Shown: positions 2,565 to 44,421, counted from the first letter of the whole stretch. The stretch is DNA of 63,556 nt, filler included, from Collodictyon triciliatum (GCA_043381765.1; 8 parts of 8 records of this genome joined end to end with filler, not necessarily neighbours in it), one strand, 5' to 3'. Made by a program: numbers and translations. Notes: generated by a model not told the origin, from the letters alone.

Positions 2565-3200
2565 TCAGATTAAGTTTAAAGTGAGGCTCCAGTCCCTTAG
2601 CCTTCCTTCACATTGGTAATGCTGGGTGACGGAGAAGTAGTCGGTAATCAGGAATTGCATCCTGCGGTTTGGCCTGTAGCCTAGGTCTTGTGCTTGCATG
2701 AGGGATACAAGGCGAGGTTGAATATCTTTCTCAGCTTCTTTCCACATGTCTCTTCTCACAGGGTCTGAGTAGGAGAGAACGTGCAGGTGGCGAAGAAAGT
2801 TGTTGAGGAAATAGATTCGTATGATGGCATCCAGTCTGTTATCAGGAATGGGTGGCTGGTTGTTGAGTCTTGCTCTGCATGAGTATATGCGCGCTATCCA
2901 CACAGTCCAAAGCAAATGGCCTCGCGTCACTGCCCGGAATGTTTTTGCATCTGGACGCAGCTGTTGCAGAGGCCCAAATATCGCCTGGATTGGGATAACA
3001 GCTGCAGCCGTCTTGAGTGTCAGTCGAAGAATCTCACCGGCTGTTTCGCGCAGGTTTTGAGCGAAGGGACATTGCACAAATGTGTGCTCAATAGGTTCAT
3101 CACCGTTGGCGCAATGCGTGCATTGTTGGGAGACTTTGCCAGCTTTTGTCGCACTGCGTGCCTATCCATGTGTACCTATTGGTGGTATCCAGCGGCCCTA
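2565..3200 (-). mobile_element. 3' fragment of L1/Tx1-like non-LTR retrotransposon ORF2 (zf-RVT region), frameshifted
   Basis: Minus strand reads QQCTHCANGDEPIEHTFVQCPFA (zf-RVT-type CxxC..ExxEHxFxxC), then LLWTVWIAR. In-frame TAG/frameshift just upstream. Homologous copies at ~11 kb and ~34.3 kb. Confidence 0.75.
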
Positions 3201-4153: not shown

Positions 4154-7100
4154 TTATCCGTCGCGGTCATCTCCGAAAGTTTCAGGGTCCTCCTGTGGTG
4201 CAGATGCTCCACCTCCACTCTCTTTCTTCTTGGAGAGTCCAGAGACAACATCGTCGATGCGAAGAAGCATTGATGCAGCCTAGTCAATAAAATAAGCGTT
4301 TTAGTCAATGATGTTAAAGGAGCCTTGGCATCTGACCTATCAAAGGGATGGTTGTAAAGTATTATTTATGGTATTATATTTAGTAGAGGGAATATGTCAG
4401 CTTCAAGTGACCGAGAGATGAAAATGTTGACAACTGTTAATCTGACCTCGATGGCAGTCTTGATAGTTTGAACTTTGACCACATAGGGCTCCCAGATGCC
4501 GAGCAGCTTCATATCAACAATTTCTCCCTATCACATGCGATAGTAGAAAGAAGAAAGGAAAAAGAAAGAAAAGAAGAAGAAGAAAAAAGGGAGGAAGGGG
4601 GGTCGATTCTACAGTTAACTTTAAAGGGCTAAGTATTTGGACGAAAGAGTACTAAGCCCAACATAAAATAAAGGACATACAGTGTTTCCATCGATACCAA
4701 AAGTGCCGTTGTTCTCGCTGGATGCGTGCTTGGCCTACAGTAAGTCCGCAATTAATTAGTCCATACACAAAACATAAATGACTAAATCAACGACCATAGA
4801 TGTCTAATCATTATTTATCGTTATTGCTAAAGACACGCATATATATACAGCATATAGCTATGTATAAAAAAATGCTAAATTCAATGGTACGTACCCGCAG
4901 AGCGGTGAGTGTACGGATGGTATTGGCGCCGCAGTTCTGGGCAAGGGTACGAGGAATGACCTCCATGGCGACACCAACAGCGTGGAAGGGCCATTGGGTA
5001 GCACCCTCGATTTGCTTAGAGCCTTCGGTGAGTGCCCTTGAAGTGAAAAGGAGGCAAAGTGAGGAGAATGGCCATCGAAAGCGTTTCATGATTTGAATCA
5101 TGCATAATTCTAAACAAAGATGTCTAGTTCGTGTGTTTATATNNNNNNNNNNNNNNNNNNNNNNNNNNNNNNNNNNNNNNNNNNNNNNNNNNNNNNNNNN
5201 NNNNNNNNNNNNNNNNNNNNNNNNNNNNNNNNNNNNNNNNNNNNNNNNNNNNNNNNNNNNNNNNNNNNNNNNNNNNNNNNNNNNNNNNNNNNNNNNNNNN
5301 NNNNNNNNNNNNNNNNNNNNNNNNNNNNNNNNNNNNNNNNNNNNNNNNNNNNNNNNNNNNNNNNNNNNNNNNNNNNNNNNNNNNNNNNNNNNNNNNNNNN
5401 NNNNNNNNNNNNNNNNNNNNNNNNNNNNNNNNNNNNNNNNNNNNNNNNNNNNNNNNNNNNNNNNNNNNNNNNNNNNNNNNNNNNNNNNNNNNNNNNNNNN
5501 NNNNNNNNNNNNNNNNNNNNNNNNNNNNNNNNNNNNNNNNNNNNNNNNNNNNNNNNNNNNNNNNNNNNNNNNNNNNNNNNNNNNNNNNNNNNNNNNNNNN
5601 NNNNNNNNNNNNNNNNNNNNNNNNNNNNNNNNNNNNNNNNNNNNNNNNNNNNNNNNNNNNNNNNNNNNNNNNNNNNNNNNNNNNNNNNNNNNNNNNNNNN
5701 NNNNNNNNNNNNNNNNNNNNNNNNNNNNNNNNNNNNNNNNNNNNNNNNNNNNNNNNNNNNNNNNNNNNNNNNNNNNNNNNNNNNNNNNNNNNNNNNNNNN
5801 NNNNNNNNNNNNNNNNNNNNNNNNNNNNNNNNNNNNNNNNNNATCTTTCTAGGATATTTACAGAACATGGGGTTGTTGCGCAGTAACGCATGAAAATTAT
5901 TTGCATGAGGAAAAAAAATTAGATAAAGTCATCGAACCTGAGACTCCCTTCTCAGTGATAACCAGGTCGGGCTTGAACTTGATGATGTCGTTACAGACAC
6001 GCTCAATATACTCTTCCTCGATGCGCAAGAGAGTGGCAAAGTCTTGTTCTTGCTTCATTTCGACGTCGGTTTGACTCTCGCCCTTCTTGTACTCAAGTGG
6101 GCAGTCCAGCAGGAGGATGCGGGGGTTTTCAATGCGGCGACGCATCTTGGGGTGGATAATGTCCTTGTTCAGGATAACACCACGAAGAACGTTGCTGTCC
6201 GTGAGCTCACCTCCTGGAATCTAAGATATTGGAAGGAAACAACCATGTGAGATCGTATAGCTGTTTTCGTGACAAAAAAAAATCATTCTAGCCCGACAAA
6301 AAAGTCCAAGTGGTTAACTCTTTTAGTAGTCATGCGAATCTAAGTAGGGGATGGAGGAGAACTCAAATAATAAGTGTATTAGGCAGTGGGGCAGACCTTT
6401 TCAACGCGAGCATATCGCTTGATGTCAATTTCCTTCTTGCCTTCGTTGTCGAGCGTAACTGTCATTACAGCATCGAGTGCGAGATTGCACAAAAGATCGC
6501 CCAAGCCAGAGATCCAATTGCTGAACTTGGTTCCAATGCAGCTCTTAATAATGCTGAGCATCTGCTCGCGATTCTTCAGGTCTACCGGGGTGGCTAACTT
6601 CTCCATGGTTTCCAATGCTTTGTCTAGGGCTTTATAGTAACCCCCGACAATGACACGAGGGTGCATGTTTCGCTCCAGGAAAGCAGCCGATACTGCGAGA
6701 ATCTCTCCAGAGAGGACAATGACAGAAGTGGTGCCATCTCCAACTTCTTCGTCCTGGGCACGGCTCAGATCGATCATGCTTTTTGCGGCAGGATGAGTCA
6801 CATCGATTTCGCGAAGGATAGCATTCCCGTCGTTAGTCATCACAATACCGCCCATGGGGTCGAGAATCATTTTGAGCATGGAGCGTGGTCCAAGGCAAGT
6901 GCGAATAATTTCCGAGACGGCCTATTATGAGAGTATTTGGCGTCAGCGAATCTCCTTCTTTGCCTGGGTATTTTATCACAAAACTCTTGAGGTGGAAAGG
7001 TTTAGTGAGGCAACCTTGTTCTAAGGGAATAAAACTGGGTATAGAGAACAAGACGAAACCGTAATAATGTTGTAGAGAGAGAGTTTAATGATTACTTTTC

Positions 7101-9370: not shown

Positions 9371-9892
9371 CTACTGAAGTGTTGCTCGGTAGATGGGATT
9401 CTCGGGACTCTTCTGCCACTCCTTCCACATCATTTCCTTCAATTGAGACATCCGGGCAGTAGGGAATTCCTCCCGGAGCTCTCTCAAGCGGCGCTCTTCA
9501 AAAGCGGCATGAGCAGCTCTAGCTCTTCGTTCAGGGTGGCGATCTGCCTCTGCTGCATCAGATGAAGACGCCGACGCAGAAAGAGATGCTGGCATGGATT
9601 TTGGGCTGCTAGCCACTTTTAAGCCGGACAAAGCCTGGATTGCTCCGTCAACCGAGGACTCTACAATGTGGCCCTCGTCGCGCAAAGCCGCGGTGGTTCT
9701 ATTGAGATTCTCTTCCAGAGGAGGCAGTTCATCTTCTTCATCTGTTTTCTTTTCTAGCTTGGATGATTTCACACTCGGCGATGAGGATGATGACCCCGCA
9801 TCTTGGCCAACCACTGGGGAAGTCGATGTCCTGAATCAAGTTCATGAGAGACATCCGTTATAGAAAGGACAAGTTTCTTTTCCAACTTCAAA

Positions 9893-24001: not shown

Positions 24002-25690
24002 CTATGTTGTTTTTTTAAATGATGAGGAGTGCGGAGATGCGGGGTTTGTAGAGCGATGGAATGATGGTGCGGTTTGTGGGGATATGGTGATTGGCGTTAC
24101 CGGGCAGATGGGATGTGGGATGGCGGTGGTGTGTGCTGCTTGGACGCTGGTGCTTGTGCTGGTGCTGGTGCTGGTGCTGGTGCTGGTGCGGGTCGGGCTG
24201 CTGTGGGGGGATTGTGAGTTGCGCGATAAGGAAGATGACGCTGGTGCAAAATAAGGTAAAGCATATGCGTCTTTCTGTGTGCGGATGCAAACCATGTTTT
24301 CTGCGGCTGTGTGGTTCGTAGAGAACTTCAAAGAAGGCAACAGTCTCCTGTACGAAGAGGAAACCAAAAAATATGTATTTTTTTTTAAAAAAAAAAAGAT
24401 GAGTGGGGCGGTGGTGCGGGTCGGTAAGAGAGAAAGTAGTTGTGTTCCTCGGTATTATTAAATGTGTCGTGCGTGTGTCTAGGGATTGGTTTTGTTGTCA
24501 TGGTTCGATGGCGATAAAGAAATGGGTGAGATGATACCTTCTGGCGTTAATGAACCAGTTGTTGACCTGGCATAGCGAAAGAGAGGTCAATGCAACAAGC
24601 TCGTGCTTCTCGTCTTCGGTCGGGTATGGGAAGTTCATGTGGCCCTTGAGCCACTTCTTGAGCTCGTCTGTGGCAGTCTTTGGCAGGTTTCCTCTCTTTC
24701 TCTTGCTGGAGGCTGCAAAGCAATCTGTACGCAAATTGAGTGAACTTACTGTGCATTTGATTGATTTGTACGCAGATGTCATATATATGTAAATTAAAGG
24801 GTCGAGTACAGATATCAGTCTCTTACCTTTTCCTTGCTCATTTGAGCCGGAGTCTGAGCCTTCTTCATCGCTACTGCTTGACAACACCAGAGAGAGACGA
24901 TGGGGAATAGGGCCTAGTCAAGGTATGAAAGAATGTGAGTGCAAGTTATGAGGAAACTCGGTAAGAAACAATCATAGGCGTGATGATGGTAATCATACGT
25001 GAGACGCTAGAGTCGATCTCGAACTTGCGCTTCGTCTGGTTTTGTTGGGTGGAGCTCGACAAGATTGCGGCACTGTTCGTGGAGTGGCCAAGGTTGCTAG
25101 AATGGACATGGGTCTCCACAGGGGCGGTCAGCACTGGATATGGCATCCTAAGGGCAGTGCCCGTCAAGACTTGCTCGAGTCCGTGGTTGACGGGGCTAAG
25201 TTTTGTCCACGGTGTCGGTATTTAATACAGTATTACGTGAGCTGAGATGAGGGGCATTTAGTTGGGGGAAGTGCTTCTTGTTACCTGTGGACTTTGACAC
25301 AGTCTAATTGGGGCACGAGACTGACATTGGGGGACACAGAGCGAGCGAGGTATCCATGCTTGACGGAGGGTACAAACAGGTGCGAGCCTCTGGGCTGGTG
25401 ATGTTCCTTCCGGTCAGACGGAGAGATAGCATGCGGGGATGAGGACGTGGACTTTGGAGCTGTGGCAAGTTCGTTGTAATTTCTGTGGGGAAAAATGTCA
25501 AGTTAGCGGTACGAGCAGCGAGCGAGTAGAAGTATGTCTGGTGAAGAAAAGGGAAGCTGAGTGGTCGATTGGACAAGGACACTCACAAGCTAACATAGTC
25601 GGCCAGCTGGAAGAGTCTGCTGGAGATTTCGTTCTCAGTCAGTGCAAGGGATTGCTGGGCGGGGGAGTGGTTCTGGACGGACATCGACAT
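24002..25690 (-). CDS. TALE-class homeodomain transcription factor; 6 exons
   Basis: KRKRGNLPKTATDELKKWLKGHMNFPYPTEDEKHELVALTSLSLCQVNNWFINARRRLL (PYP loop, WFIN); phase-consistent upstream exons from ATG 25690. Confidence 0.9.
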
Positions 25691-28028: not shown

Positions 28029-31000
28029 TCAGTCCAGATGGATGGACGAATAAATCTTTTGTGTGAAGAATAAGGCCGAGATGTATCCAACAGATGCCGA
28101 TAGCAAGAAAAAGAATATGGTCATTATCGAAGTATATCCAAAAAACAAAACTCCTGGAATAAAAGCTATGATTTCAAGGTTAGCTTTGAAGTAGTACATC
28201 GAGTATCCCAGGAAATATATGGCCGCGCTTCCTGAGTTCCATATGGAGCGCCACATCCAATTATAGTCCTTGATTATTGGTATGTTTCCTATTAAAAATA
28301 GAATAAAAAATAATAGAATAGAACAGAAAAGCAGGGACTTACCCCATATGACAGTTGGAGATAGCACAGAACGATGCTAACTTCGGCCGTGGTCAAGACA
28401 AGGATTAGAAAAACGAGACCGAGGATTCCAAAGAGGTAATAAAACTGATGCTGCCAAATGGATGTGAGGATAAAGTACAGCTCGACAAAGACAGCGCCAA
28501 ATGGGAATATTCCTCCAACAACAACCGTGAACAAAGGGTTGAGAAACCACGGCTGCGGAGGTATCGGACGGGCAACTGGGCTTGCTTTCTTGGCCAGCTC
28601 TGCGTTTCCCCGCGTGTAGCCAAAGTACGTCCCGACAAACACCAGAGGCAGAGATACGCCGACCCAGAGTGCAAAGAGCGTGATGAACGAGGTGAATGGA
28701 ATGGCACCAGAGGATTTCTTGCTCCATGCAAACGTGTTGAGGACAAGCACCATTCCGAGAATGAGTCCTGGGAAGAGCGCAGCAGTTGCAAGGGTGTTTG
28801 TTTTCCACCGTGTTCCGTGAAGCAGGCGATATATTCTCGCAGAGACGTACCCTGCAACAAGGCTGGAATTCGATGTGAGTCAAATTTAACTATTTAGTTT
28901 CATTTTCTTCCAGGCGATTACATACTTTTGAGATTCTTAATGTAAAGCAGTGTAGTCGCCTTGAAAAGAAAAAAGAAGGCGTGGGGAAAGTAGAACATAA
29001 CTGCTTTCTACTATTCGAAAAAAAATTGAGTTTGTATGCGTCTAATGAAAAACGGACTAACCCCATCATGACAAACAGCAGCAATGCAGAAGATATTAAC
29101 CCGCCTCGGTTGGCCGGTGATAAGAACCCGAGCATGGCAAACACTAAACCGAAATGAGCATTTTGAAAATTGATGAATAACAAATATATAATTTATTGTG
29201 ATTGTTTTACATAAAATAGAATTTTTGGGAGTTACGGACAGAAAGGACCTACCAAGAGTGACTAGGGACATGCCGAAGATTTGGGCACCTGACCCAACAA
29301 TTACACAAAGTACAATTGAGTTTCTTGGCAATCGGAATATATCTCCGTGCAGAATTTTCCACCCCGTATTAGACTCCAAGTCTTCCATCAGGTCGTGCGT
29401 GCTGTATTTTATCAGGTCCTTTTACAGCAAAAAAATAAAAAAATAAAGCATATGAGTATACTTTTTTTTTTTTTTACAAGTTTGTATTGTTGTTTCCCCT
29501 CTAAAAAAAATAAAGGAAACATGACCAGAAAAAAACCAGTAAGAAAGGAAAGAAAGGGAAGAAAGGGAAAAGAGAGAACCAACTTGGTGCAGAGTGCGAG
29601 CGAATATAACAGCGATGATGCCGGTCAAGAGCAGGATCATTATAAGCGAATTAATGATAGAGAACCAATGTATTTTACTATCGGTAACCATTAGGTATAT
29701 GTCCCATCGTGATGCCCATTTGATTGGACTAGGCTATGGGAAGTTGTAATTTAGATAACAAGTCTGGTTCGTGGAATATATATTGCAAAGTGATGCACCA
29801 TCCTCTCCTATTCGAAGCAAGTTTTCAATCTCTCTTTGGATTCATTAAGAGATCATGTAATTGCGTATAGGACAAACTTAGAAAATGAGCAAACAGACGA
29901 ACCTCCCATGTGACATCATAAGTCCACGTAATAGTGGCAGGGTGTTGCACTGATTGCGGGGACATATTGGCATTCGATTCACACGAAACTTTATATTGTG
30001 CGCTTCCAGCTTGGAAACTGTGTTGGATGCTGGATGGGAAAGCCTCGACTCCAACCACACGCGACTTAATTCCTCGCGGAGTCTCTTCGGAATGATACAT
30101 CACTTTCAGGGACACGTGGTTATGTATGTACTGCTCGATTTCCCTGTCCTTTGATTACACATTGATTTTGATTTCATCAGAACATCATTTGATATTGACC
30201 CATTACTCGAATTGTAATAGAAAAAAGGTTCGTTGAGGGTCAAGGAAGACGTTAAGACTTATTTTGGGGGTGATTCATTTTCTAACTTTCTTTTTTTCAT
30301 AACATAACAATATAAGAAAGTATCGTGCTTTGAATTACCAGGAATATATTCTGGTATAAGCGTGAATTGGAATAATAAAGTAAAAAAGTATGGTATGGAA
30401 GGTAGGCGGGTGGCTCATACATCAGGGTTCTTGGCACTATAGCCGAGAGGGAATCCTATTTGATATGTTTTTGTAGATTCGCTTCCTTCCTTGGTGGGTG
30501 CGATTGGCACAGCAACAGGGAGATTATCCAGAATCCTGAATTTATTGGTTAGCAAATAGTTGGGAGGCCTATTTAAAGCACAAGAGAGAAATGAATGGGT
30601 GCATCGTGGTTGAACACTAATAAAATCAATGAATCATCCGGTTTATAATATCATCAGATCGGATATCAAAGAAAGAATAAAATAAGAACGGAGACACATA
30701 ATGGCCTGTTGGTTACCAATTGACTCTGTATTCTTGTTTTATTCTTGTGGCAAACTTTCGAATTTCCGCCTTGTTATAAGTGACTGTACATAATACTTTA
30801 CATTTTTCCTCTACTTTCATTTTAATCTATGGCAGAGAAGCCTAATTAGTTCCACTATTTTATGATATATCCATGTTTGAGATCAATTGTGCAAGGACTG
30901 TAAAACGAATAGGTACTTCGTATCTCGAGTTTTCAATCCGGTCCCCATACAACGCCTCTCCTATGTTTTCGATTGTTTTTTCAACTCTTGATGGGCGGCA

Positions 31001-34712: not shown

Positions 34713-36838
34713 ATGTCGGGCTCGTCAACGAGGAAGACCCCGAAACACTCTACGTTTCAGAACGACGATGAACTAGCTGGTAAGAATGTTTTTCGTTCGC
34801 TTCCAAGCCGTGTAATCACGGTATTTTGCTGTATGGGGCACACCGAGTGGATGTTCAGCGATATTGGTGTCGGCAGCAAGAGGCTATAATGCCCATCCTA
34901 TTGCTTTTCATTTCTATTCTTTTTAATGTTTTTTTTTTATTGCTATTATTGCTACTATGTTGGGTAATGATTTTAGCGAGCCTCTCACGAAAAGTTGTGT
35001 GTAATTGTTTTATTTAGTAGCTGCTTTTCTTGAGATAAGAATATTTAAGATTAAAAAAAAAGTAAAAGCTACTTTATGTTATTACGATCATGGTTCTGAG
35101 AAAGATAGCTCAAACTGAAACAATATTATCCTGTGTGCCCAGTAAAGAGACCGTGAACCTCGTAATAATCCCCTTAAAAAACGGCAGGAGACGAATATTT
35201 GAAGCCCATTCGCAGCGTCTCAAAAGAAGGTGATATTCTCAAAGGCGACGCAGAGGAAGCGGATATCGCTGAAAGAGACATAGTGGATGAAGATGATGAA
35301 TATTACCACCAATCCAATACGGCCGGAGGCAGCGAACCCAAAAAACCTGGTTTGCCTACGTTTATCTCTTTGGTAGTCACTGCCATAAATGGCTTTTCCT
35401 TCTCATCTCCCTTTTAAAAAGAGCAAACAAATTCACAAACTCGACACTATGATTCGAAATAAGAGTTTGAAACAAGGTGCAAGTAATAGCCAATATGTTG
35501 ACTCAGATGCACTATTGTCTAAATCTCTTTCCCTTTCCTTGTGGTTAGTGAAAACGCGCAAACGAAAGAAACTTGAGAAATTGAAGGAGAAAAAGAAACG
35601 AGCCAAAGAGATGGAGCGCGAAGCTGATGCCTTGGAGCAAGGAAACTTGCNNNNNNNNNNNNNNNNNNNNNNNNNNNNNNNNNNNNNNNNNNNNNNNNNN
35701 NNNNNNNNNNNNNNNNNNNNNNNNNNNNNNNNNNNNNNNNNNNNNNNNNNNNNNNNNNNNNNNNNNNNNNNNNNNNNNNNNNNNNNNNNNNNNNNNNNNN
35801 NNNNNNNNNNNNNNNNNNNNNNNNNNNNNNNNNNNNNNNNNNNNNNNNNNNNNNNNNNNNNNNNNNNNNNNNNNNNNNNNNNNNNNNNNNNNNNNNNNNN
35901 NNNNNNNNNNNNNNNNNNNNNNNNNNNNNNNNNNNNNNNNNNNNNNNNNNNNNNNNNNNNNNNNNNNNNNNNNNNNNNNNNNNNNNNNNNNNNNNNNNNN
36001 NNNNNNNNNNNNNNNNNNNNNNNNNNNNNNNNNNNNNNNNNNNNNNNNNNNNNNNNNNNNNNNNNNNNNNNNNNNNNNNNNNNNNNNNNNNNNNNNNNNN
36101 NNNNNNNNNNNNNNNNNNNNNNNNNNNNNNNNNNNNNNNNNNNNNNNNNNNNNNNNNNNNCATCTCACAATACAGCATCCCACTTTGTGGAGACATCTAC
36201 AACCCCAGTATCTAGCCTAATCAAGCAGCTACATCCCACCTGGAAGAAGTCATTCCGCGCGAGCGAAGCCACACTGGATTCCTCTAACGATGCAGACGGA
36301 GTTCGTGGGCTGCCTGTTGTCGTCATCATCACTGGGTCAGCCATGCGAGCAGCAAATATATACAGGTCCAACGAGAATACAAAGCCCTGCATCATTCTCA
36401 CTTTGCCTGCATCCCGAAACCACCATAGAAAGTCATTTAATATACGTATACTTATGTCTCTACCTGACCGGTTTCTACACTTGCTCTCTCTCTCTCTTGT
36501 CAACCCTGCTCAGAACTCTCAATGACTTCACCTCCATCGGCCACGTTGGGAAGCTCTTTGCTAAGCACATCAAGATGTCAGAGCATGTGGAGCTACTTCA
36601 CTCCATAGTGATGAAAATCATCGTGGGGACTCCGCACCGAATCCTGAAGCTGGCTGAGTCGGGCGAGCTGCGCTTCACTCGCACAAAGCACCTTTTCATC
36701 GACGGGCAGCTCGATCAAAAGTCGTTCAGCGTCTTCGACGTTAAGGACACAAAGCGCGAACTTCTCGCTCTCCTTCAGCAGTTTGTCATCCCTTGCGTGC
36801 AAAGCGGCAATCTCAAGCTGGGCATCACCGAGAACTAA
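34713..36838 (+). CDS. CMSS1: CMS1/CMSS1 90S pre-ribosome factor (degenerate DEAD-box-like); internal N gap 35651-36160
   Basis: N-terminal DDELAGDEY; PVVVIITGSAMRAANIYR..VGKLFAKHIKMSEHVELL..IIVGTPHRILKLAESGEL..LFIDGQLDQKSFSVFDV. Confidence 0.85.
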
Positions 36839-36999
36839 CCGTCCCCCTCTTCCCAGCTCTTCTCACATCATATCATACCCGCTCTCTTTCCGACCGACAC
36901 ATACACACACATATATAAGATGCACACCTTCTGGGGCGGGTATTTGTGCTTTGCAATTCTGTTTGTGTGTATTCGGGTGTTTGCTTTGCGTGGTTGGGA

Positions 37000-39929
37000 T
37001 TACTGACCTCCTTCCCTCTTCTTGCGCTCCTCCTCTTCGGCCAGGGACATGCGGATGGCCTCCTGCAAATCAGCGTCTTCGTCTTGCTGGGGGTTCGCTG
37101 CAGGTTGGCCGGGCTGCTGTGTGGCTGGCTGTGTGGCTGCAGGGGTCTGCGCCTGGCCGAACGGCGGCATGTTGGCCATGAATCCGGGGTTTGTGAACTA
37201 GTTGGGGTGGTGTGTCAGGTTCGGTGGGATTGATTCTGAGTGAATGTGGAAAGTTTCATGGCAGTTTACAATCTGTTGGGGAGAATAAGGGGAAAAGAAA
37301 CTATGGTTCTAAAGCAAAGAATTTTGGGGATTGGTGGACGATGGAAGACATTTGAAAGGAGATAACAAGGCCGTTACCATGGACGGGAATGTGTTTGCCC
37401 CGCCCATCCGCTGCATTTGTCCCATCATCCTCGACATGATGGCAGGGTTCGCCATGAGGCGGGCAGTGATTTCCATCATACGCGGGTTTTGCATCAGGGA
37501 CGCGTAGTTTGGAGGCCGACTTGGGTCTGTGTCGCGAGAATACAATTAATGTGTATTTTATGGATCCAAGTGTCCCAGTATGACGAGTTAATTCTACAAG
37601 CATGTATGGGTCTTCGGTGGGAATGATGAGGGATTCTGTTTACCTGTGAAGGACTGCATCATTTCAGTCATCAAAGCAGGGTCTTGCATAATCTAAGTTT
37701 TAACTTAATATCAGAAAGGGAAAAAAAGATACACTACGATTATTCAAATGATTCTGTCTACCGATAACTGGGATAATATAAAAAAGGGGGTTACACTTCT
37801 TTGGATATGCTATTTTATAGCGAACGAGTGCAAACTGGGTAACTGCAAACCCATGGATACATGCCAGAACAAAAGGAAGGAAGGAAGGAAGGAAGGAAGG
37901 AAGGAAGGAAGGTGAAACCTCTTGCATGATTTCGGTGCTCATGGGGTCATTCATTAGTGCCTCACGAAGTTCGGCATCCTGGGCAATGGCCCCAAATCCA
38001 GGAGCACCTGGAAATGTGGACCCCATCCCCGGGAAGGATGGGTTCGGTTGAGCTTGTGGGATAGGAGTTGGAGCTGGAGCTGAAGTTGAAGTTGATGAAC
38101 CAACATTGGAGCCCAAGGCAGATTCTAGCATTGACTTGATTCTGTGATTGTAAGAGAACAAATGCTTTACTGTAGGGAAAATTGAGGGAATATTGTGAGA
38201 GTTTGAAAACAGCAAAGAGTGCGTATGCTTAAAAGCCGAGTAGATTAAAAACGACTCACAATCGAGGCCAAACCACATATATCAATAAATTAAAATGAAC
38301 TTTGGGAGTTGGGGGTCGATCGAGTCCATGTAATAGAATGCTTCTCCATCTTCGAGGATTTCAAAGAACCCAAAGCTCTTTAGTGCTTCGACTCCTCCAG
38401 TACGCCCACTAAAAAAAAAGGCATTGAAAATATGTGCAAAGATAAATAGTTCAATTTAATGTGTATCTATTTCGAGTGGTGACAGTATTGTCTTCATTAG
38501 TAATATCTCTCATAGGTAAAGGGGAAAAAAAAAAGCTACACAATGCGGTTTTTGAAAGCTTGATTGCTCTGCTTTATTCTCCGGAACTTCATCTCAGTGG
38601 GGTTCTTTAACACTGTTTTACCATTACATTAATCACCCATACCTTTCTTTATTTAAAATAATAAAATTCAAATGCACAAACAAGAACTTTAATCTCCACA
38701 AATCAATCATATCAAGACAATTAAACGATTTTTTCTGAGATTTTGATCACCATTATCAACATATGCTAACAATAGCTTCGTAGTATCGATGAAGTCGTTG
38801 AATGGCACATTTTCTTTGACGATTTTAAGTGCCTGTGCAACACGTTCAGGGGTTATTCTAGGTTTAGTGCATCGTTAATTTAGTAAGTATCGAATTCTTC
38901 GACATAACTCGAAATAAAAATCCAATAATCTGTTTGGTTTTTTCAACAGCAAATAGATGAAATCTCGTCTGAACTGCATATTAGCCACGTCATAACAATT
39001 CTTGTATGACATAGCCGTGTTACATATTTAATCAAATAAACGGGATAAAAAAACCGTATCATAGCAAAAGAAAAAAATTACGGTATGGGGTTAGGGTTAA
39101 CGTGTCTCTTCGGCGCGGGTGTTTGTTGGGCCTATGAAATGCGCCATTGTAAGGATTATATTTTTGAACTAGACCTGATTGCGCTACATAATATTGGATA
39201 TAACAAGACGAGGTGATAAAAAAAATCGTATGAATTTGGTCTCTGACATAACAAATTCTTTTCTGAGAAAGATTTGATAACTAGCAGCTTAGATAAGTAA
39301 AGAAGATAACATAATTGAAAATATAAAAGAAATTTTGATTGCTCACAATTCCACCGTGCGTAACAACCGATGACTCGACTCGGTATATATCGGCACCCTT
39401 AAACTCAAGAATTCGAGACATATTCCTATAGAAATGAAAGGTCGGATATGCGTTGATGACAGCTTCTCGTACAAGGGCCTTGTTTGACGCGGTGGCCTCG
39501 CTATCGACCTGGACGAATGTGACATCTATTTTGCGTAAAAGGAAAAAGTGATTCACGCATGAATGAGATACAGCATGCAAAGAGCCCTCAAGATGACCAT
39601 GAGTAATAGGCCACAGTTAAATGCAACGAAAAATACATCGCCCATGCTTGAAATATCACACTGATTACTTGTATATTTCTCGGACAAGGCGACATACGAA
39701 TCATGGATCGCACGACATGGCCCACACCACGGAGCAAACCAATCTACCACAATCAATCGATCTCCGGCTGTTGATAGGATGTCACGGAGTTCATTACCTC
39801 CATCTACGATGATTCAATAAGGTTTTGTTTAATGAACGATAGGATATCCGACCCTTTTATCAATAGAGTAATAATATTTTTTCCTCCAATAGAGTAATAA
39901 TATAAATGAACAACAACAACAACAACAAC

Positions 39930-40015
<86 letters not shown>

Positions 40016-42119
40016 GTCAATCTAACACATGTGACATTTTCATAGAGAATGTATGCCGTTAAGAGCTTTTAGACAATGGCAGAGAGGATATGTTGCCACT
40101 TTTCTTACCTTGGACATTGATTACAGATCCGCCAGAATGGTACTTTGAGCTACTGCTAACTACTGGAGCAGGAGATACAGTAGAGGATGCAACAATCGGT
40201 ACTGAAGGAAGGGAAGTAGTGTTGGATGAAACTGTCGTTGTTTTAGATGGCTGTGAAGCAGTTGTTGGCGCAGTACTAACGGATGCGGCAGTCTTTTGTA
40301 CCAAAATTACAATAGAGTCTCCAGCCTAATTGAACGAACACAAGGTAAACAACGTGAAGACCTTACAAAAAAAAAACATTTTGAAGTGTGAGTCCGGATG
40401 AAATATGAATAAGTATTGGTATCTCTCATCGATGATGACGATAGACATGCCTTGACATTATATTGTGCCAGATTTTTTTCATCTTCGAGGCGAGAGCCAC
40501 CAAAGATAAGGCGTTGGTTGGCTGGTTGAACCCCGATGGCTGATTCCACAACTTCTTTGAGTTGGGAAACTTTAATTGACAACGATGGTACCTTAATCTC
40601 CGTACTTTTGCCTTGGACCTATGTATGGAATTAATTGGCGGTAAGGTGTCGTATTTATTAAGACATACAGATAAAAAAAAAACATATCATTACTCTTTCA
40701 TGAAACATTTGTTTCGTAATGGGATGTAAACGCGAACATTTTTTATGTACAAGGAGACAAGTTTAGCAGCTTCGGTGGCCTGGTTTCATTTATCAAATTA
40801 GAATAAATTGCTAAAGAAAAATAAAAAAAACATGTTCAAAATATGGTGTTAGATATCGTAAGATAGGTATAATTCCTTTTATTCAATTCAAATTACAAGA
40901 TCTAATATCGAGGTATTCTATGTGAAGAATAATTCAATAACAAGACCCTATAAATGTGAATGTCATGGACAGTATAATGAAGAGATCAATTTAAAAAATT
41001 TGATGGTGAAGTTTTGGACGTTGATTAGATGGAACATACTGAAGAAGTTGGAGATGTAGGGGCTTGGGTGGCTAGTGGAGATTTTGGTGCAGATAAGGAT
41101 GGTTCCTCCGACTGTTTGGGAATGGATGATGATGTCTGAGTTGCAGGCAGCACAGGTGTAGATGTGGAAGGAATAGAGACTGATGAAGGTGGATTGGCTT
41201 CTGTGCTGAACTTCAGTGCCTCCTAGGCAATTAAATTATCTGGTAAGTGACTAAAAGCTGAAATCAATATCTTTTATTAGGATGATGTTATAACATATCA
41301 TTACATTTTGTGTATTCGTGTTATGCGTATAACTCAGACTATTGTTCAGAAATTAACCCACAGCTAATAAACTTTCTTCTTCCTCCAGTTGTGAGCTGAC
41401 AACTGGCGCAACAGCTGATGGCTTAGGCTCTTTTGGTGCTTCTTTTGGTGCTTCTTTTGGTGCTTCTTTTGGTGCTTCTTTTGGTGCTTCTTTTGGCGTA
41501 GCAGCTGACTGGATGGGCGCCTTAAGCTTTTTTACCAAATCCTGAGGAAACCAAGATTAATATGAGCTATTGATAAAAATGAGCAGATGGGAGAAGACAA
41601 GCGGTATCACTCAAGGTACTTGGTTGTCAACCACATATCAAATGATTTACCGAAAGAATCTCTTTAACGATATCATATTTTGCTGCCATGACTAACACTT
41701 TTTCAGAGGATGCCTACAGTGAAACAGTAAGTTTTCGTATGAGTATGATATTTAAAACCTGCTTATACATAGCCATGTGGTAAATAGACGCTTTACTCGT
41801 CCATAAACACCAAGGTAAGCTCATGTGTACAGTATTCGTATTTTTCTTTTTGTTTGGCAAATAAGTAGGAAGCGAGACAAACTTGATTCAGTGTTTTCTT
41901 CTCTGGATTGGTTTCCAGAGCCATCTTACGCAGCTTTTCAACCTGAGGTTCGACAGCGATCAGATCCTTCTGTAGAGCTAGAGCATGATTTCGGGTCTCG
42001 ATATCCTCGATTGAATCGTCTGCCTCTGTACGCCAGGTGGAAGGCAACTTGGCAAGTAATGTTTGGGCCCGCGAGTCCATCGAAGAGACGGCTGCTTCGG
42101 TTGTTTTCAGGATGGTCAT
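37000..42119 (-). CDS. Multidomain protein: helical N-terminus, UIM, ubiquitin-like, thioredoxin (WCGPC), PUB, STI1-like, UIM; about 17 exons
   Basis: One phase-consistent model: EEEESLLAEALKFS (UIM); KVSQLKEVVESAIGVQPANQRLIFGGSRLEDEKNLAQYNVKAGDSIVILV (UBL); LIVVDWFAPWCGPCRAI..AYPTFHFY (Trx); LLLAYVDNVLKNPTEMKFRRIKQSNQAF..GGVEALKSFGF (PUB); LMNDPM..IMQDPALM..LMQNPRMM..LMANPAIM (STI1); DEDADLQEAIRMSLAE (UIM). Confidence 0.85.
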
Positions 42120-42974
42120 ATCTGTAGATTTTCCAGGTTTCTGGCAGAGAGAAAGAAAGAAAGAAAGAAAGGAAAAGGCACAGAAGTTTACACCAACAAC
42201 ACCAACAACACTAACAACAACTGAAATGAGGGAAATCTGAGACTTGTCCTTCATATCTACAGCACTTTACTAGTTTACTACAATCAAGGAGATGCGCTTA
42301 CTCCACAGGTTTAACAAACACGTGAATGTTTTTGTCGCTTGACTGGGTTATTGTGTGCCGAAGGTTGCACGCCCCCCTCGGCTTCTGATCTGCGGATGGA
42401 ACCGATCGATTGGATCGAGAAGCAGAACACCCAAAATATTTTCTATTTATGGAATATACTGCTATATAATTTTTGGAAATTATATGGGGCACACAGATCA
42501 TTCAACAGCTTAAGTAAACGTAAAGTTTATCATAATTTGTACACATAAGCAAGAAGGTTTAAAGCTGCACCTCACCTTCGCGGTCAACGCCTCGGTAACG
42601 CATTTTCATTAACAGTCTTATCTAATTTTGGATGACTAGCACATATTGTATATAAATAAAATACCACATATGCAATTATTCTTGGCACCATCTCCCCATC
42701 AAGCAGATGACCACAATACCCAGGGGAAGTGTTCAAATCACGCCACACAGCCAAACCATCCGTTCACCTGACAGACCCTCACCACACCCAACATTCCACT
42801 TGGCTCCACGGAGACAAATAACTATTTAATAATTAGGAAAACAAAAACAAAAAAAAACAAAAAAACAAAAAAACNNNNNNNNNNNNNNNNNNNNNNNNNN
42901 NNNNNNNNNNNNNNNNNNTTAATTAATTAANNNNNNNNNNNNNNNNNNNNNNNNNNNNNNNNNNNNNNNNNNNN

Positions 42975-44421
42975 AAAAAAAGACAAAGAAAGCCGCCGCT
43001 GCAAACTCAGGGGCCGCTGCAGCCCCAGCCGGAACGCCAGGCGCAAAAGTCAGGACAAAGGTAGTCACAAGGCGAATGACGAAGCAAAAAACCACCGAGG
43101 AAAATAGTGAACCAAACGCAAACGCAAACGCAAACGCAAACGCAAACGCAAACGCAAACGCAAACGCAAACGCAAACGCAAACGCAAACGCAAACGCAAA
43201 CGCAAACGCAAACACAGACACAAGTGCAGATGCAACTGATTCGCAGCCAGGAAAACAGCCGCAAACATCCTCGCAATTATTCCTTCAGGTATTACCTCTA
43301 CCAGAACCGCAATTGCTCCTTCCATCGCTGCAGCAGACAGACTTGCAAACAAGCGTTCCGGACACCCCAGCAAAGCGTTTGCGCAGCAATTACGATAATG
43401 ATTCGGACCATTTCCAGGAGACCGGGTATTTGCCGTCGGACAATATGGATGATTCTTTCTATTCTCTCGATAGAGATACAATGCCGTACAATTTGCACCA
43501 ACTGCACACCCAATCGCCGCATAGCTCGGCTTCTCTCGGCCATCATATCTACGTTGGCCAGGCGCATAATCCCCCTCTGACAGATTCTACCGCCAATAGT
43601 AATACTAATATCACCATTACTGCTCCTACTGCTACTGCTGCTGCTCTGCATCCAATAAACGGGATAGACGAGTTTGGTCCTCCATTGGCTGACATGAGCG
43701 GGTCGTACACTGGGTCTCTTCTCAAAGGCCACATCCACGGCAAAGGTCGCTTTACCTATCTCAACGGCGATGTCTTCGATGTGAGTTGATTGCTTACTTC
43801 TCGGCATGCAATTTTATATCAAAGTTGTGTTCGTCTTTTCTTTCTAACTAATTTTTTTTTTTGTGTTGCGGGTATCAATTTGTTTTGTTGGCATTAATCA
43901 CCAACAATGTTCTAAACTTTCAATATATTTATCTCGTCCCACTCTGCCTATGTTGGTTTCATCAATATTAAACAGCTATTTTTTTGATTGTTCTTTAAAG
44001 AATTTTTTTGATCCTAGTAAAGACTTATTCTATTATGCGCTCGTTTTTTTTAATTTCTCCATTTATCACAAACACCCCTCTTTATTTTGAATTTCCTCCT
44101 TTTTTTTTTGTACGTTATGACTCCCTTTCTTATTCTATTTCTACCCCACTACTAAATTCTCTTCTGAATATCTCTTATCATCGACAATCAATATTGTCAT
44201 TCAATTTCATGGCCATTCTCTGGTCGAACGCTGTTCATTATTGGTCTATAATCAGTTTCATTCATTTTTATAGGGAGAGTGGAACATGGGAAAACGCCAC
44301 GGTTATGGGGAATTTTATCAGGCGGATGGATATCATTACAAGGGGAATTGGCGTGATGATAGGGTTCAAATAATCAATTAATTATTTTTTAACATAGCCC
44401 AGTTACGTTATTATTATTATT

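What the first reader, a model, noticed from the sequence alone, without database searches (positions are those of the whole stretch)
37000..42119. Single-chain UIM-UBL-thioredoxin-PUB-STI1-UIM protein: candidate redox-coupled p97-to-proteasome shuttle
Seen: one phase-consistent spliced ORF carries two UIM-like helices, a ubiquitin-like domain, an intact WCGPC thioredoxin, a PUB domain and Met/Asn-Pro STI1-like repeats. Established: UBL plus STI1 plus a ubiquitin binder is the Rad23/Dsk2/ubiquilin shuttle design; PUB domains bind the p97/Cdc48 C-terminal tail; WCGPC reduces disulfides. Partial pairings are known (Trx+PITH in TXNL1, Trx or PUB on PNGases), but I do not recall a characterised protein with all of them. 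Inference: it may capture ubiquitylated substrates at p97, reduce their disulfides, shield hydrophobic segments and deliver them to the proteasome, for example in ERAD.
Basis: partly seen in the sequence, partly recalled or inferred. Interest (0 to 1): 0.8.

Follow-up and report, generated by a model that had tools for sequence, protein, structure and literature searches.

The report
Ubiquilin-like shuttle carrying thioredoxin and PUB
One expressed 17-exon gene of a little-studied freshwater protist encodes a 786-residue protein that joins ubiquitin-binding, proteasome-docking, Cdc48/p97-docking, chaperone-like and disulfide-reducing modules, a combination found in no paper searched, whose function is still only inferred.

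Summary
Spliced RNA contigs from three public runs support all 16 introns. They link 17 exons between the ATG at 42119 and the TAA at 37000-37002 on the minus strand, with a poly(A) tail at about 36950.

The spliced frame is open for 786 codons. The order is:
- helical N-terminus
- (PKEA)5 repeat
- UIM
- UBL
- thioredoxin with WCGPC, which holds the protein's only two cysteines
- PUB
- Met-rich STI1-like region
- UIM

UBL and thioredoxin are significant in Pfam. PUB, STI1 and UIM score below Pfam's cut-offs because exons had to be scanned singly, but other tests back them.

No relative with this layout turned up. These searches were weak, though, because a spliced protein could not be submitted. 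A neighbouring CCT-gamma exon is 89% identical to Diphylleia rotans, which places the genome in CRuMs, a poorly sampled lineage.

Six literature searches found only Trx+PUB (sPUB of complex plastids), never the full set.

The shuttle-with-reductase reading is reasonable domain logic and untested. I rate it a new variant of a known kind, of moderate interest.

The parts
41883..42119 (-). Exon 1: start codon (ATG 42119-42117; alternative M14 at 42080) and residues 1-79 of the helical N-terminal region.
   Evidence: Joint 41712/41882 (read +1) in X1 and X2. AF2 on this exon alone gives a helical hairpin, pLDDT 81. No Pfam, PDB, Atlas or Foldseek match.
41651..41713 (-).
   Evidence: Joints 41540/41650 and 41712/41882 in X1 and X2. 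AG and GTAAAT splice sites.
41362..41541 (-). Exon 3: end of the N-terminal region, the (PKEA)5 repeat (41422-41499) and the acidic first half of UIM 1 (41362-41391).
   Evidence: Joints in X1, X2 and X3. The X2 contig lacks 25 nt inside the repeat at depth 5.8 (table 4).
41040..41222 (-). Exon 4: second half of UIM 1 (41199-41222) and a Ser/Thr/Pro-rich linker.
   Evidence: Joints 41221/41361 and 40778/41039. Motif test.
40738..40779 (-).
   Evidence: Joints 40778/41039 and 40616/40736 in X1.
40451..40618 (-). Exon 6: core of the ubiquitin-like domain. It is followed by a GC-AG intron.
   Evidence: Pfam ubiquitin, E 6e-13, 48.8 bits. Closest solved single-domain matches are NEDD8 and ubiquitin. 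Joint 40323/40449 in X1 and X3.
40109..40325 (-). Exon 7: last UBL strand (no C-terminal Gly-Gly), a Ser/Thr-rich linker and the start of the thioredoxin domain.
39669..39803 (-). Exon 8: first half of the thioredoxin domain, with WCGPC at 39715-39729.
   Evidence: Pfam Thioredoxin, E 1.4e-8. 153 PDB matches at E<=0.001; the 60 shown are thioredoxins and PDI domains. These are the only two Cys in the protein.
39347..39525 (-). Exon 9: second half of the thioredoxin domain, including the cis-Pro position.
   Evidence: Pfam Thioredoxin, E 0.0036. Best PDB matches are thioredoxin f2, the TXNL1 Trx domain (1gh2) and human thioredoxin.
39082..39131 (-).
   Evidence: Joints 39130/39346 and 38855/39082 in X1; X3 record 9.
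38751..38857 (-). Exon 11: first third of the PUB domain.
   Evidence: Joints. No Pfam hit on its own. Assigned by its position next to the PUB exon.
38540..38612 (-). Exon 12: central PUB signature (N-P, K-F-R, I-K, N-x-x-F).
   Evidence: Pfam PUB, E 1.4e-5, profile positions 19-41 of 82. 5 of 5 PDB matches are PUB domains.
38301..38408 (-). Exon 13: last third of the PUB domain. It has a weak GTTCAT donor 18 nt before an in-frame TGA.
   Evidence: Joint 38141/38301 in X1 shows that PUB and the STI1 region are in one mRNA. No Pfam hit on its own.
37919..38141 (-). Exon 14: linker with an SHP-like F-x-G-x-G-x-x-F motif (38012-38035) and the start of the Met-rich STI1-like region (37919-37987).
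   Evidence: The SHP-like pattern occurs in 201 of 20000 shuffles.
37644..37692 (-). Exon 15 (49 nt): Met-rich STI1-like segment.
   Evidence: X3 record 8 and joint 37526/37644 in X1, X2 and X3.
37378..37526 (-). Exon 16: STI1-like segment.
   Evidence: Pfam STI1-HOP_DP, E 1e-3; XPC-binding, E 0.0075. PDB matches are Sgt2 and yeast Sti1 DP domains, 3 of 3.
37000..37197 (-). Exon 17: Gln/Pro-rich tail, UIM 2 (37036-37089) and the TAA stop (37000-37002).
   Evidence: Pfam UIM, E 0.024, 14.9 bits, cut-off 21. Motif test. Joint 37197/37378 in X1 and X2.
36943..36999 (-). 3' UTR and poly(A) site.
   Evidence: T-run loose ends at 36950 (X1) and 36943 (X2) (table 7).

Best explanation
This is one nuclear gene for a soluble 786-residue adaptor of the ubiquitin-proteasome system.

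In outline it is a ubiquilin/Dsk2-type shuttle: a UBL to dock on proteasome receptors, a Met-rich STI1-like region to hold hydrophobic client segments, and ubiquitin binders. It differs in three ways. The ubiquitin binders are two UIMs instead of a UBA. A catalytically intact thioredoxin sits directly in front of a PUB domain between the UBL and the STI1 region. The N-terminus is an unassigned helical domain.

Proposed mechanism:
1. PUB binds the extreme C-terminal tail of Cdc48/p97, at the D2 end.
2. An SHP-like motif may add a contact with the Cdc48 N-domain.
3. The UIMs hold the client's ubiquitin chain.
4. The thioredoxin reduces disulfides in clients that Cdc48 has extracted or unfolded.
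5. The STI1 region keeps the client soluble.
6. The UBL hands it to the proteasome.

Shown here: gene structure, expression, open frame, domain order, intact WCGPC, and absence of a signal peptide or membrane segment. Inferred: every binding event, the reductase activity and the pathway.
For: - One transcription unit: joints for 16 of 16 introns and a poly(A) tail.
- A 786-codon open frame across 17 exons.
- Pfam ubiquitin 6e-13, Thioredoxin 1.4e-8 and 0.0036, PUB 1.4e-5, STI1-HOP_DP 1e-3, UIM 0.024.
- The PUB exon matches only PUB domains in the PDB, 5 of 5.
- The STI1 exon matches only Sgt2 and Sti1 domains, 3 of 3.
- Two UIM cores; 5 of 5000 shuffles reach two.
- The only two cysteines are those of WCGPC, and the highest 19-residue hydropathy is 1.17, so no membrane segment or signal peptide.
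- PUB binds the p97 C-terminal DDLYG peptide (PMC5559722, passage read).
- Ubiquilin STI1 domains bind hydrophobic sequences (PMC11257586, abstract start in a search listing).
- A thioredoxin-fold cofactor at the degrading proteasome has a precedent in TXNL1 (PMC12700817, abstract).
- A thioredoxin on a cytosolic ERAD enzyme has a precedent in C. elegans PNG-1 (PMC6429583, passage).
Against: - No binding or activity was tested.
- PUB, STI1 and UIM scores are below Pfam's cut-offs. Two of the three PUB exons give no hit alone.
- No homologue with this layout was found, so conservation is unknown.
- The listed differences between the window and its close relatives X1 and X2 are 13 non-synonymous against 7 synonymous. 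That is no sign of strong constraint, though most lie in linkers and none in the thioredoxin.
- The X2 contig has a 25-nt gap in the PKEA repeat, which would shift the frame if real (depth 5.8, in a repeat).
- The PUB domain of HOIP prefers OTULIN over p97 (PMC5559722), so a PUB domain need not mean p97.
- The helical N-terminus has no assignment.
Confidence: 0.5

Rival explanations
1. The thioredoxin acts on Cdc48 itself rather than on clients. PUB tethers a reductase to the ATPase to keep redox-sensitive cysteines reduced or to switch its activity. The UBL, UIM and STI1 parts only target the protein to sites of ubiquitin-dependent work.
For: This role was proposed for sPUB, the Trx+PUB protein of the diatom periplastidal compartment (PMC3101018, passage read). 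Papers on redox switches in Cdc48 appear in a search listing (PMC13616930 and bioRxiv 10.1101/733709; titles and abstract starts only). Trx and PUB are separated by only 17 residues.
Against: It does not explain why a client-holding STI1 region, two UIMs and a UBL are on the same chain. No Cdc48 sequence of this organism was examined for suitable cysteines.
Confidence: 0.2
2. It is a proteasome- or ubiquitin-associated reductase and chaperone, comparable to TXNL1, whose PUB domain binds some partner other than Cdc48.
For: The second thioredoxin exon's second-best PDB match is the TXNL1 thioredoxin domain (1gh2, E 8.7e-4). The HOIP PUB domain binds OTULIN about 100 times more tightly than p97 (PMC5559722, passage). 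UBL and UIMs are proteasome and ubiquitin modules.
Against: No PITH domain is present. The PUB exon keeps the conserved signature shared with the p97-binding PNGase and UBXD1 PUB domains.
Confidence: 0.15
3. It is a recent, lineage-restricted gene fusion, or a set of alternative isoforms, without an integrated function. The parts would act as they would in separate proteins, or the long form would be a minor product.
For: No relatives were found by any search. There are 13 non-synonymous against 7 synonymous differences from close relatives. The linkers are long and low in complexity. Contigs cannot show isoform ratios. Earlier scan notes record that protists shuffle Cdc48-docking modules freely.
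Against: All 16 joints are present and the frame is kept through 17 exons. No alternative joint was listed, although one row was not shown. There is no Met between residues 88 and 444, so the UIM, UBL and the start of the thioredoxin cannot be translated without the N-terminal exons.
Confidence: 0.15

Closest known systems
Ubiquilin / Dsk2 shuttle factors (UBL - STI1 repeats - UBA)
   Same: A UBL lies upstream of a Met-rich STI1-like region, and a ubiquitin-binding element sits at the C-terminus. The protein is soluble with long disordered linkers.
   Different: No UBA was detected; two UIMs take that place. The UBL is internal (residues 226-302), not N-terminal. A Trx-PUB module is inserted between the UBL and the STI1 region. 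There is an extra helical N-terminal domain.
sPUB of the SELMA plastid import machinery (thioredoxin + PUB; PMC3101018, PMC12412216)
   Same: A thioredoxin domain lies directly in front of a PUB domain on one chain. A redox role at Cdc48 has been proposed for it.
   Different: sPUB carries a bipartite plastid-targeting signal. It is reported only from Stramenopiles and Chromerida, and its thioredoxin is reported to be nested among YbbN-like proteins (PMC12412216, passage). The protein here has no signal peptide. Its thioredoxin halves match cytosolic, f-type and TXNL1 thioredoxins best. It sits in a CRuMs-like genome. It also carries a UBL, an STI1-like region and UIMs.
TXNL1 (thioredoxin + PITH, proteasome cofactor; PMC12700817, PMC12700798)
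   Same: A redox-active thioredoxin brought to the degradation machinery. There is sequence similarity in the second half of the thioredoxin fold.
   Different: No PITH domain. Docking would be through the UBL and PUB instead.
PUB-domain Cdc48/p97 cofactors: PNGase/NGLY1, UBXD1, HOIP
   Same: The central PUB signature exon matches these PUB domains only.
   Different: No transglutaminase/PAW, UBX or RBR parts are present. C. elegans PNG-1 has a thioredoxin in place of PUB (PMC6429583), whereas this protein has both.

Membership tests
Ubiquilin/Dsk2 | Ubiquitin-like domain | tested here: met
   Pfam ubiquitin, E 6e-13 on exon 40451-40618. The domain is internal rather than N-terminal.
Ubiquilin/Dsk2 | STI1-type Met-rich client-binding region | tested here: inconclusive
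   STI1-HOP_DP, E 1e-3, 19.4 bits against a cut-off of 29.1 on one exon. 3 of 3 PDB matches are Sgt2 or Sti1. The region spans three exons and could not be scanned whole.
Ubiquilin/Dsk2 | C-terminal UBA domain | tested here: not met
   No UBA hit on the last exon; a UIM is found instead.
sPUB (SELMA) | Thioredoxin followed by PUB on one chain | tested here: met
   RNA joints link the exons.
sPUB (SELMA) | N-terminal bipartite plastid-targeting signal | tested here: not met
   No hydrophobic N-terminus from M1 or M14. An upstream in-frame ATG at 42254 would add a hydrophobic stretch, but it lies in microsatellite DNA beyond the RNA contig's end.
sPUB (SELMA) | Thioredoxin of YbbN type, as reported in PMC12412216 | tested here: inconclusive
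   Best PDB matches are thioredoxin f2, TXNL1, human thioredoxin and PDI a-domains. No YbbN or CnoX name appears among the rows shown. No tree was built.
TXNL1 | PITH domain after the thioredoxin | tested here: not met
   No PITH hit on any exon.
PUB-domain p97 cofactors | Complete PUB domain above the Pfam cut-off | tested here: inconclusive
   Only the 23-residue middle exon hits (25.4 bits, cut-off 34.3). The flanking exons have the right length but give no hit alone. The joined domain could not be submitted.
PUB-domain p97 cofactors | Binding of the Cdc48/p97 C-terminal Leu-Tyr peptide | not testable with these tools
   No Cdc48 of this organism is at hand, and no genome is held.
Classical thioredoxin | WCGPC active site, buried Asp before it, cis-Pro loop | tested here: met
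   Read directly from the translation of exons 39669-39803 and 39347-39525. Pfam and PDB matches. That these positions define an active thioredoxin is recalled knowledge.
UIM | Acidic run, then hydrophobic-x-x-Ala-x-x-x-Ser-x-x-acidic | tested here: met
   Two such sites, at residues 159 and 765; 5 of 5000 shuffles have two. The Pfam UIM hit on the second is below cut-off (14.9 against 21 bits). The first spans a splice joint and could not be scanned.

The most novel reading that the evidence does not exclude
This single chain would link the exit (D2/C-tail) side of Cdc48 to the proteasome and carry its own disulfide reductase and client holdase. It would then be a 'Rosetta stone' showing that disulfide reduction is a built-in step of the Cdc48-to-proteasome handover, preserved as one gene in a deep-branching eukaryote (CRuMs). 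It would also be an independent, non-plastid origin of the Trx+PUB pairing. That pairing was recently used as a unique shared character linking stramenopile plastids and apicoplasts.
Probability: 0.25. Interest if true: 0.7.

Novelty: new variant of a known kind. Interest (0 to 1): 0.5.

Why it matters
Three points would matter if the reading is right.

1. How disulfide-bonded or oxidised clients are made fit for the proteasome after Cdc48 extraction is only partly understood. TXNL1 at the proteasome is a recent example (PMC12700817). A natural fusion that puts a thioredoxin next to a Cdc48-tail binder inside a ubiquilin-like shuttle gives a concrete, testable model. It also offers a ready-made bait for substrate trapping.

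2. PMC12412216 (passages read) reports Trx+PUB only in Stramenopiles and Chromerida and treats it as a valuable shared character for plastid ancestry. A Trx-PUB adjacency in a CRuMs-like genome shows that the pairing can arise elsewhere. Here the thioredoxin looks cytosolic in type and there is no targeting signal.

3. The gene comes from a supergroup with very few studied proteins.

Tried and rejected
Searches for relatives all failed, and all were limited to single exons because a spliced protein could not be submitted.
- The search for homologous proteins with the second thioredoxin exon: 21 candidates, none passing. With the first thioredoxin exon: 8 candidates, none passing.
- Metagenome scans with the thioredoxin exon (598 pattern matches, none confirmed) and the UBL exon (592, none confirmed).
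It gave 2503 hits at E<=0.001, but the best 150 were multi-UBL or polyubiquitin-like proteins. A local phmmer of the spliced model against those 150 found no match outside the UBL and its adjoining linker, and none of them contains CGPC.
- ESM Atlas: no usable hit for exon 1, and only thioredoxin fragments for the thioredoxin exon.

N-terminal domain. There was no Pfam hit. The single PDB match had E 0.55. AF2 on exon 1 alone gave a helical hairpin. Foldseek against the PDB gave 3 matches, all with E>=6.6. The domain remains unassigned.

The PUB flanking exons, rescanned at E<=10, gave nothing. PDB searches with them gave nothing relevant.

No genome is held for this window. There are no earlier notes on this genome and no look-alike windows.

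Run X4 laid nothing.

I considered that the in-frame TGA after the PUB exon ends one gene and that a second gene starts at the next Met. I rejected this because of joint 38141/38301 in X1.

I considered a plastid-targeted sPUB orthologue. I rejected this because there is no signal peptide and the thioredoxin type and lineage differ.

Complex prediction was not used, because no Cdc48 or proteasome receptor of this organism was available.

Supplementary figures of PMC12412216 (S12, the sPUB architecture and tree) could not be seen and may bear on the comparison.


Full report
**What is there**

The minus strand between 42119 and 37000 carries a chain of short open frames separated by stop-rich DNA, as expected for a eukaryotic gene with introns. 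I laid the contigs of four public runs on 36800-42400. Run X1, two further runs of its study (X2 and X4) and a freshwater metatranscriptome (X3) were used. X4 laid nothing.

The other three runs gave spliced joints for all 16 introns:
- Fifteen are listed in table 5, all of them in X1. Five are also in X2 and three also in X3.
- The sixteenth (37692/37919) is shown by X3 record 8 and by the 49-letter step in X1 record 1.

X1 and X2 are on record only as 'RNA?'. They behave as cDNA all the same. Their joints sit on GT-AG borders. T-run loose ends at 36950 and 36943 mark a poly(A) tail of a minus-strand mRNA. Template-switch adaptor letters cap several contig ends.

Donors are 15 GT and one GC, the GC belonging to intron 40326-40450. 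All 16 acceptors are AG. Introns are 109-305 nt long.

No single contig covers the gene. Four or more tile it; two of them meet in exon 38540-38612 with a 30-letter overlap. Every internal exon has a joint on each side, so the exons form one transcription unit.

This removes the two weak points that I saw before laying reads. The first was the poor GTTCAT donor at 38300, which lies 18 nt ahead of an in-frame TGA. It is used, so PUB and the STI1 region are on one mRNA. The second was that the UBL appeared to lack its first strand. That strand sits in a 42-nt exon (40779-40738). Two more small exons (41713-41651 and 39131-39082) complete a 17-exon model.

**The protein**

The spliced CDS is 2361 nt and open for 786 codons. 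The coordinates given in the finding are the first base of the ATG and the last base of the TAA.

The order along the chain:

| Residues | Element |
|---|---|
| 1-110 | helical region |
| 115-140 | five PKEA repeats |
| about 151-167 | UIM 1 |
| to 225 | Ser/Thr/Pro linker |
| 226-302 | UBL, with no terminal Gly-Gly |
| to 355 | Ser/Thr linker |
| 356-468 | thioredoxin, WCGPC at 389-393 |
| 469-485 | 17-residue linker |
| 486-581 | PUB |
| to 632 | linker holding an F-x-G-x-G-x-x-F motif at 617 |
| 633-722 | Met-rich STI1-like region |
| to 757 | Gln/Pro-rich stretch |
| 758-775 | UIM 2 |

The two cysteines of WCGPC are the only cysteines in the protein. No 19-residue window exceeds a hydropathy of 1.17, so there is no signal peptide or membrane segment from M1. 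No Met lies between residues 88 and 444. Translation must therefore start in the N-terminal exons to make the UIM, the UBL and the thioredoxin.

The start itself is uncertain. An X2 cDNA end at 42101 lies just inside the ORF, which would favour M14. An upstream in-frame ATG at 42254 lies in (GTT)n/(CTTT)n microsatellite DNA, beyond the last RNA letters at about 42236.

**How solid the domains are**

Only contiguous stretches could be scanned, so every domain was tested in pieces.
- UBL: E 6e-13.
- Thioredoxin: E 1.4e-8 and 0.0036 on the two halves. PDB matches are thioredoxins, PDI a-domains and TXNL1.
- PUB: this rests on its 23-residue middle exon (E 1.4e-5, 25.4 bits against a cut-off of 34.3, profile positions 19-41 of 82). 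That exon's five PDB matches are all PUB domains, four PNGase entries and UBXD1, at E 0.6-1.1. The two flanking exons have the right lengths to complete the domain but give no hit alone, even at E<=10.
- STI1: one exon reaches E 1e-3. Its three PDB matches are Sgt2 and two Sti1 DP domains.
- UIM 2: 14.9 bits against a cut-off of 21.
- UIM 1: it spans a splice joint and could not be scanned.

As a motif test, I looked for an acidic run followed by hydrophobic-x-x-A-x-x-x-S. It occurs twice in the protein, and two or more occurrences were seen in 5 of 5000 shuffles.

The N-terminal region stays unassigned. There was no Pfam hit and one PDB match at E 0.55. The Atlas gave no usable hit. AF2 on exon 1 alone gave a helical hairpin with mean pLDDT 81. 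Foldseek gave only matches with E>=6.6.

**Surroundings and organism**

Downstream, a convergent plus-strand gene for a CMS1-like protein (Pfam E 7.7e-17) ends with its own poly(A) at 36920. That is only 23-30 nt from this gene's poly(A) sites. Upstream, a divergent plus-strand ORF begins near 42.9 kb; its 43400-43789 stretch gave no Pfam hit at E<=0.001.

No genome is held for the window. I used a CCT-gamma exon (6382-6921, minus strand) to place the organism. It is 89% identical to two EukProt proteins and 72% to a third, then 62-71% to a wide range of eukaryotes. The top-scoring row, P0151, is unnamed and only 59% identical. The 89% cluster is from Diphylleia rotans and the 72% protein from Rigifila ramosa. 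The window therefore comes from a collodictyonid-like member of CRuMs. This fits the freshwater metatranscriptome that holds part of the gene.

**Relatives**

I found none, but the searches were weak.
- Two word-based searches with the thioredoxin exons scored nothing.
- Two metagenome scans confirmed nothing.
- My one exhaustive HMMER scan used the UBL exon. Its best 150 rows were filled by multi-UBL proteins. None of them aligns to the model outside the UBL and its linker, and none holds CGPC.

Absence of relatives is thus not shown.

Against the close relatives X1 and X2, the differences listed are 7 synonymous and 13 non-synonymous. Most are in linkers and the N-terminus, two hit one UBL codon, one is in the STI1 region, and none is in the thioredoxin. 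The sample is too small to argue for or against constraint. One X2 contig lacks 25 nt in the PKEA repeat, at depth 5.8. If real, this would break the frame in that organism. I regard it as a likely assembly artefact in a 12-nt repeat, but it stands unexplained.

**Literature**

Six searches found no paper that describes a UBL, thioredoxin, PUB, STI1 and UIM on one chain.

The nearest item is sPUB. It is a thioredoxin+PUB protein of the diatom periplastidal compartment, proposed to regulate the plastid Cdc48 by redox (PMC3101018, passages). PMC12412216 (passages) states that only Stramenopiles and Chromerida hold this combination in its 864-species set. It also states that sPUB's thioredoxin is nested among YbbN-like proteins, and it uses the pairing as a shared character for plastid ancestry.

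The protein here differs in four ways: no targeting signal, thioredoxin halves closest to cytosolic, f-type and TXNL1 thioredoxins, a CRuMs-like genome, and four extra modules. It looks like an independent fusion, though I built no tree.

Other background comes from passages or abstracts:
- PUB binds the p97 DDLYG tail, while the HOIP PUB domain prefers OTULIN (PMC5559722).
- TXNL1 is a redox-active cofactor of the degrading proteasome (PMC12700817, abstract).
- C. elegans PNG-1 carries a thioredoxin where other PNGases carry PUB (PMC6429583).
- Ubiquilin STI1 domains bind hydrophobic sequences (PMC11257586, abstract start).
- Earlier notes of this scan record other protist fusions of Cdc48-docking modules. 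These make domain shuffling of this kind look common. I did not check those notes.

**Reading**

The best-supported view is a ubiquilin-like shuttle that has swapped UBA for UIMs and taken in a Trx-PUB module. PUB would seat it on the Cdc48 C-tail. The SHP-like motif, which appears in about 1% of shuffles, might add a contact with the N-domain. The UIMs would hold the ubiquitin chain. The thioredoxin would reduce the client, the STI1 region would keep it soluble, and the UBL would dock on the proteasome.

Everything beyond gene structure, expression and domain content is inference. I give this reading 0.5.

The rivals are:
- a reductase aimed at Cdc48 itself (0.2)
- a TXNL1-like proteasome or ubiquitin reductase whose PUB binds another partner (0.15)
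- a recent fusion or isoform set without integrated function (0.15)

**Verdict**

I rate it a new variant of a known kind, with interest 0.5. The decisive work is a full-length profile and architecture search, a look in the CRuMs transcriptomes, and simple binding and reduction assays.

Noticed in passing
window 40326-40450 (minus strand): A GC-AG intron inside the UBL domain. It is the only non-GT donor of the gene's 16 introns. It is confirmed by RNA joints in X1 and X3, and within the allowed shift of the joint no GT-AG reading is possible.
   Followed up: yes
window 36920-36950: The poly(A) sites of this gene (36950 and 36943, minus strand) and of the convergent CMS1-like gene (36920, plus strand) lie only 23-30 nt apart, so the two 3' ends nearly abut.
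   Followed up: partly
window 38012-38035 (residues 617-624): An F-x-G-x-G-x-x-F motif lies in the linker after PUB and resembles the SHP box that binds the Cdc48/p97 N-domain (the consensus is recalled). It occurs in 201 of 20000 whole-protein shuffles. If functional, it would give two-point binding to Cdc48.
   Followed up: partly
window 41422-41499: Five tandem PKEA repeats (12-nt period). One contig of a close relative (X2, depth 5.8) lacks 25 nt here, which is not a multiple of 3 or 12. This is unexplained and may be an assembly artefact.
   Followed up: partly
window 42138-42266: The 5' leader is microsatellite DNA, (GTT)n and (CTTT)n. It happens to be open in frame with the gene from an ATG at 42254 and would encode a hydrophobic stretch. 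The RNA contig ends at about 42236, so it is probably untranslated, but the true 5' end was not fixed.
   Followed up: partly
window 6382-6921 (minus strand): A CCT-gamma (TCP-1) exon. It is 89% identical to Diphylleia rotans and 72% to Rigifila ramosa proteins in EukProt, which places the window in the CRuMs lineage.
   Followed up: yes
window 2565-3161 (minus strand): An ORF with a zf-RVT match (zinc-binding region of reverse transcriptases, E 3e-4, below cut-off). It is probably the tail of a non-LTR retroelement.
   Followed up: partly
window 24498-24917, 28292-28879, 9371-9835 (all minus strand): Exons of a TALE/KN homeobox gene (E 5.9e-18), an EMP70/TM9SF endomembrane protein (E 3.8e-65) and a Ccdc124/Oxs1-like protein (E 3e-24).
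   Followed up: partly
window about 5140-5850, 35650-36160, 42930-42975 and others: Runs of N (assembly gaps), several of them next to (AAG)n/(CTT)n-type low-complexity DNA. One gap interrupts the CMS1-like neighbour gene.
   Followed up: no
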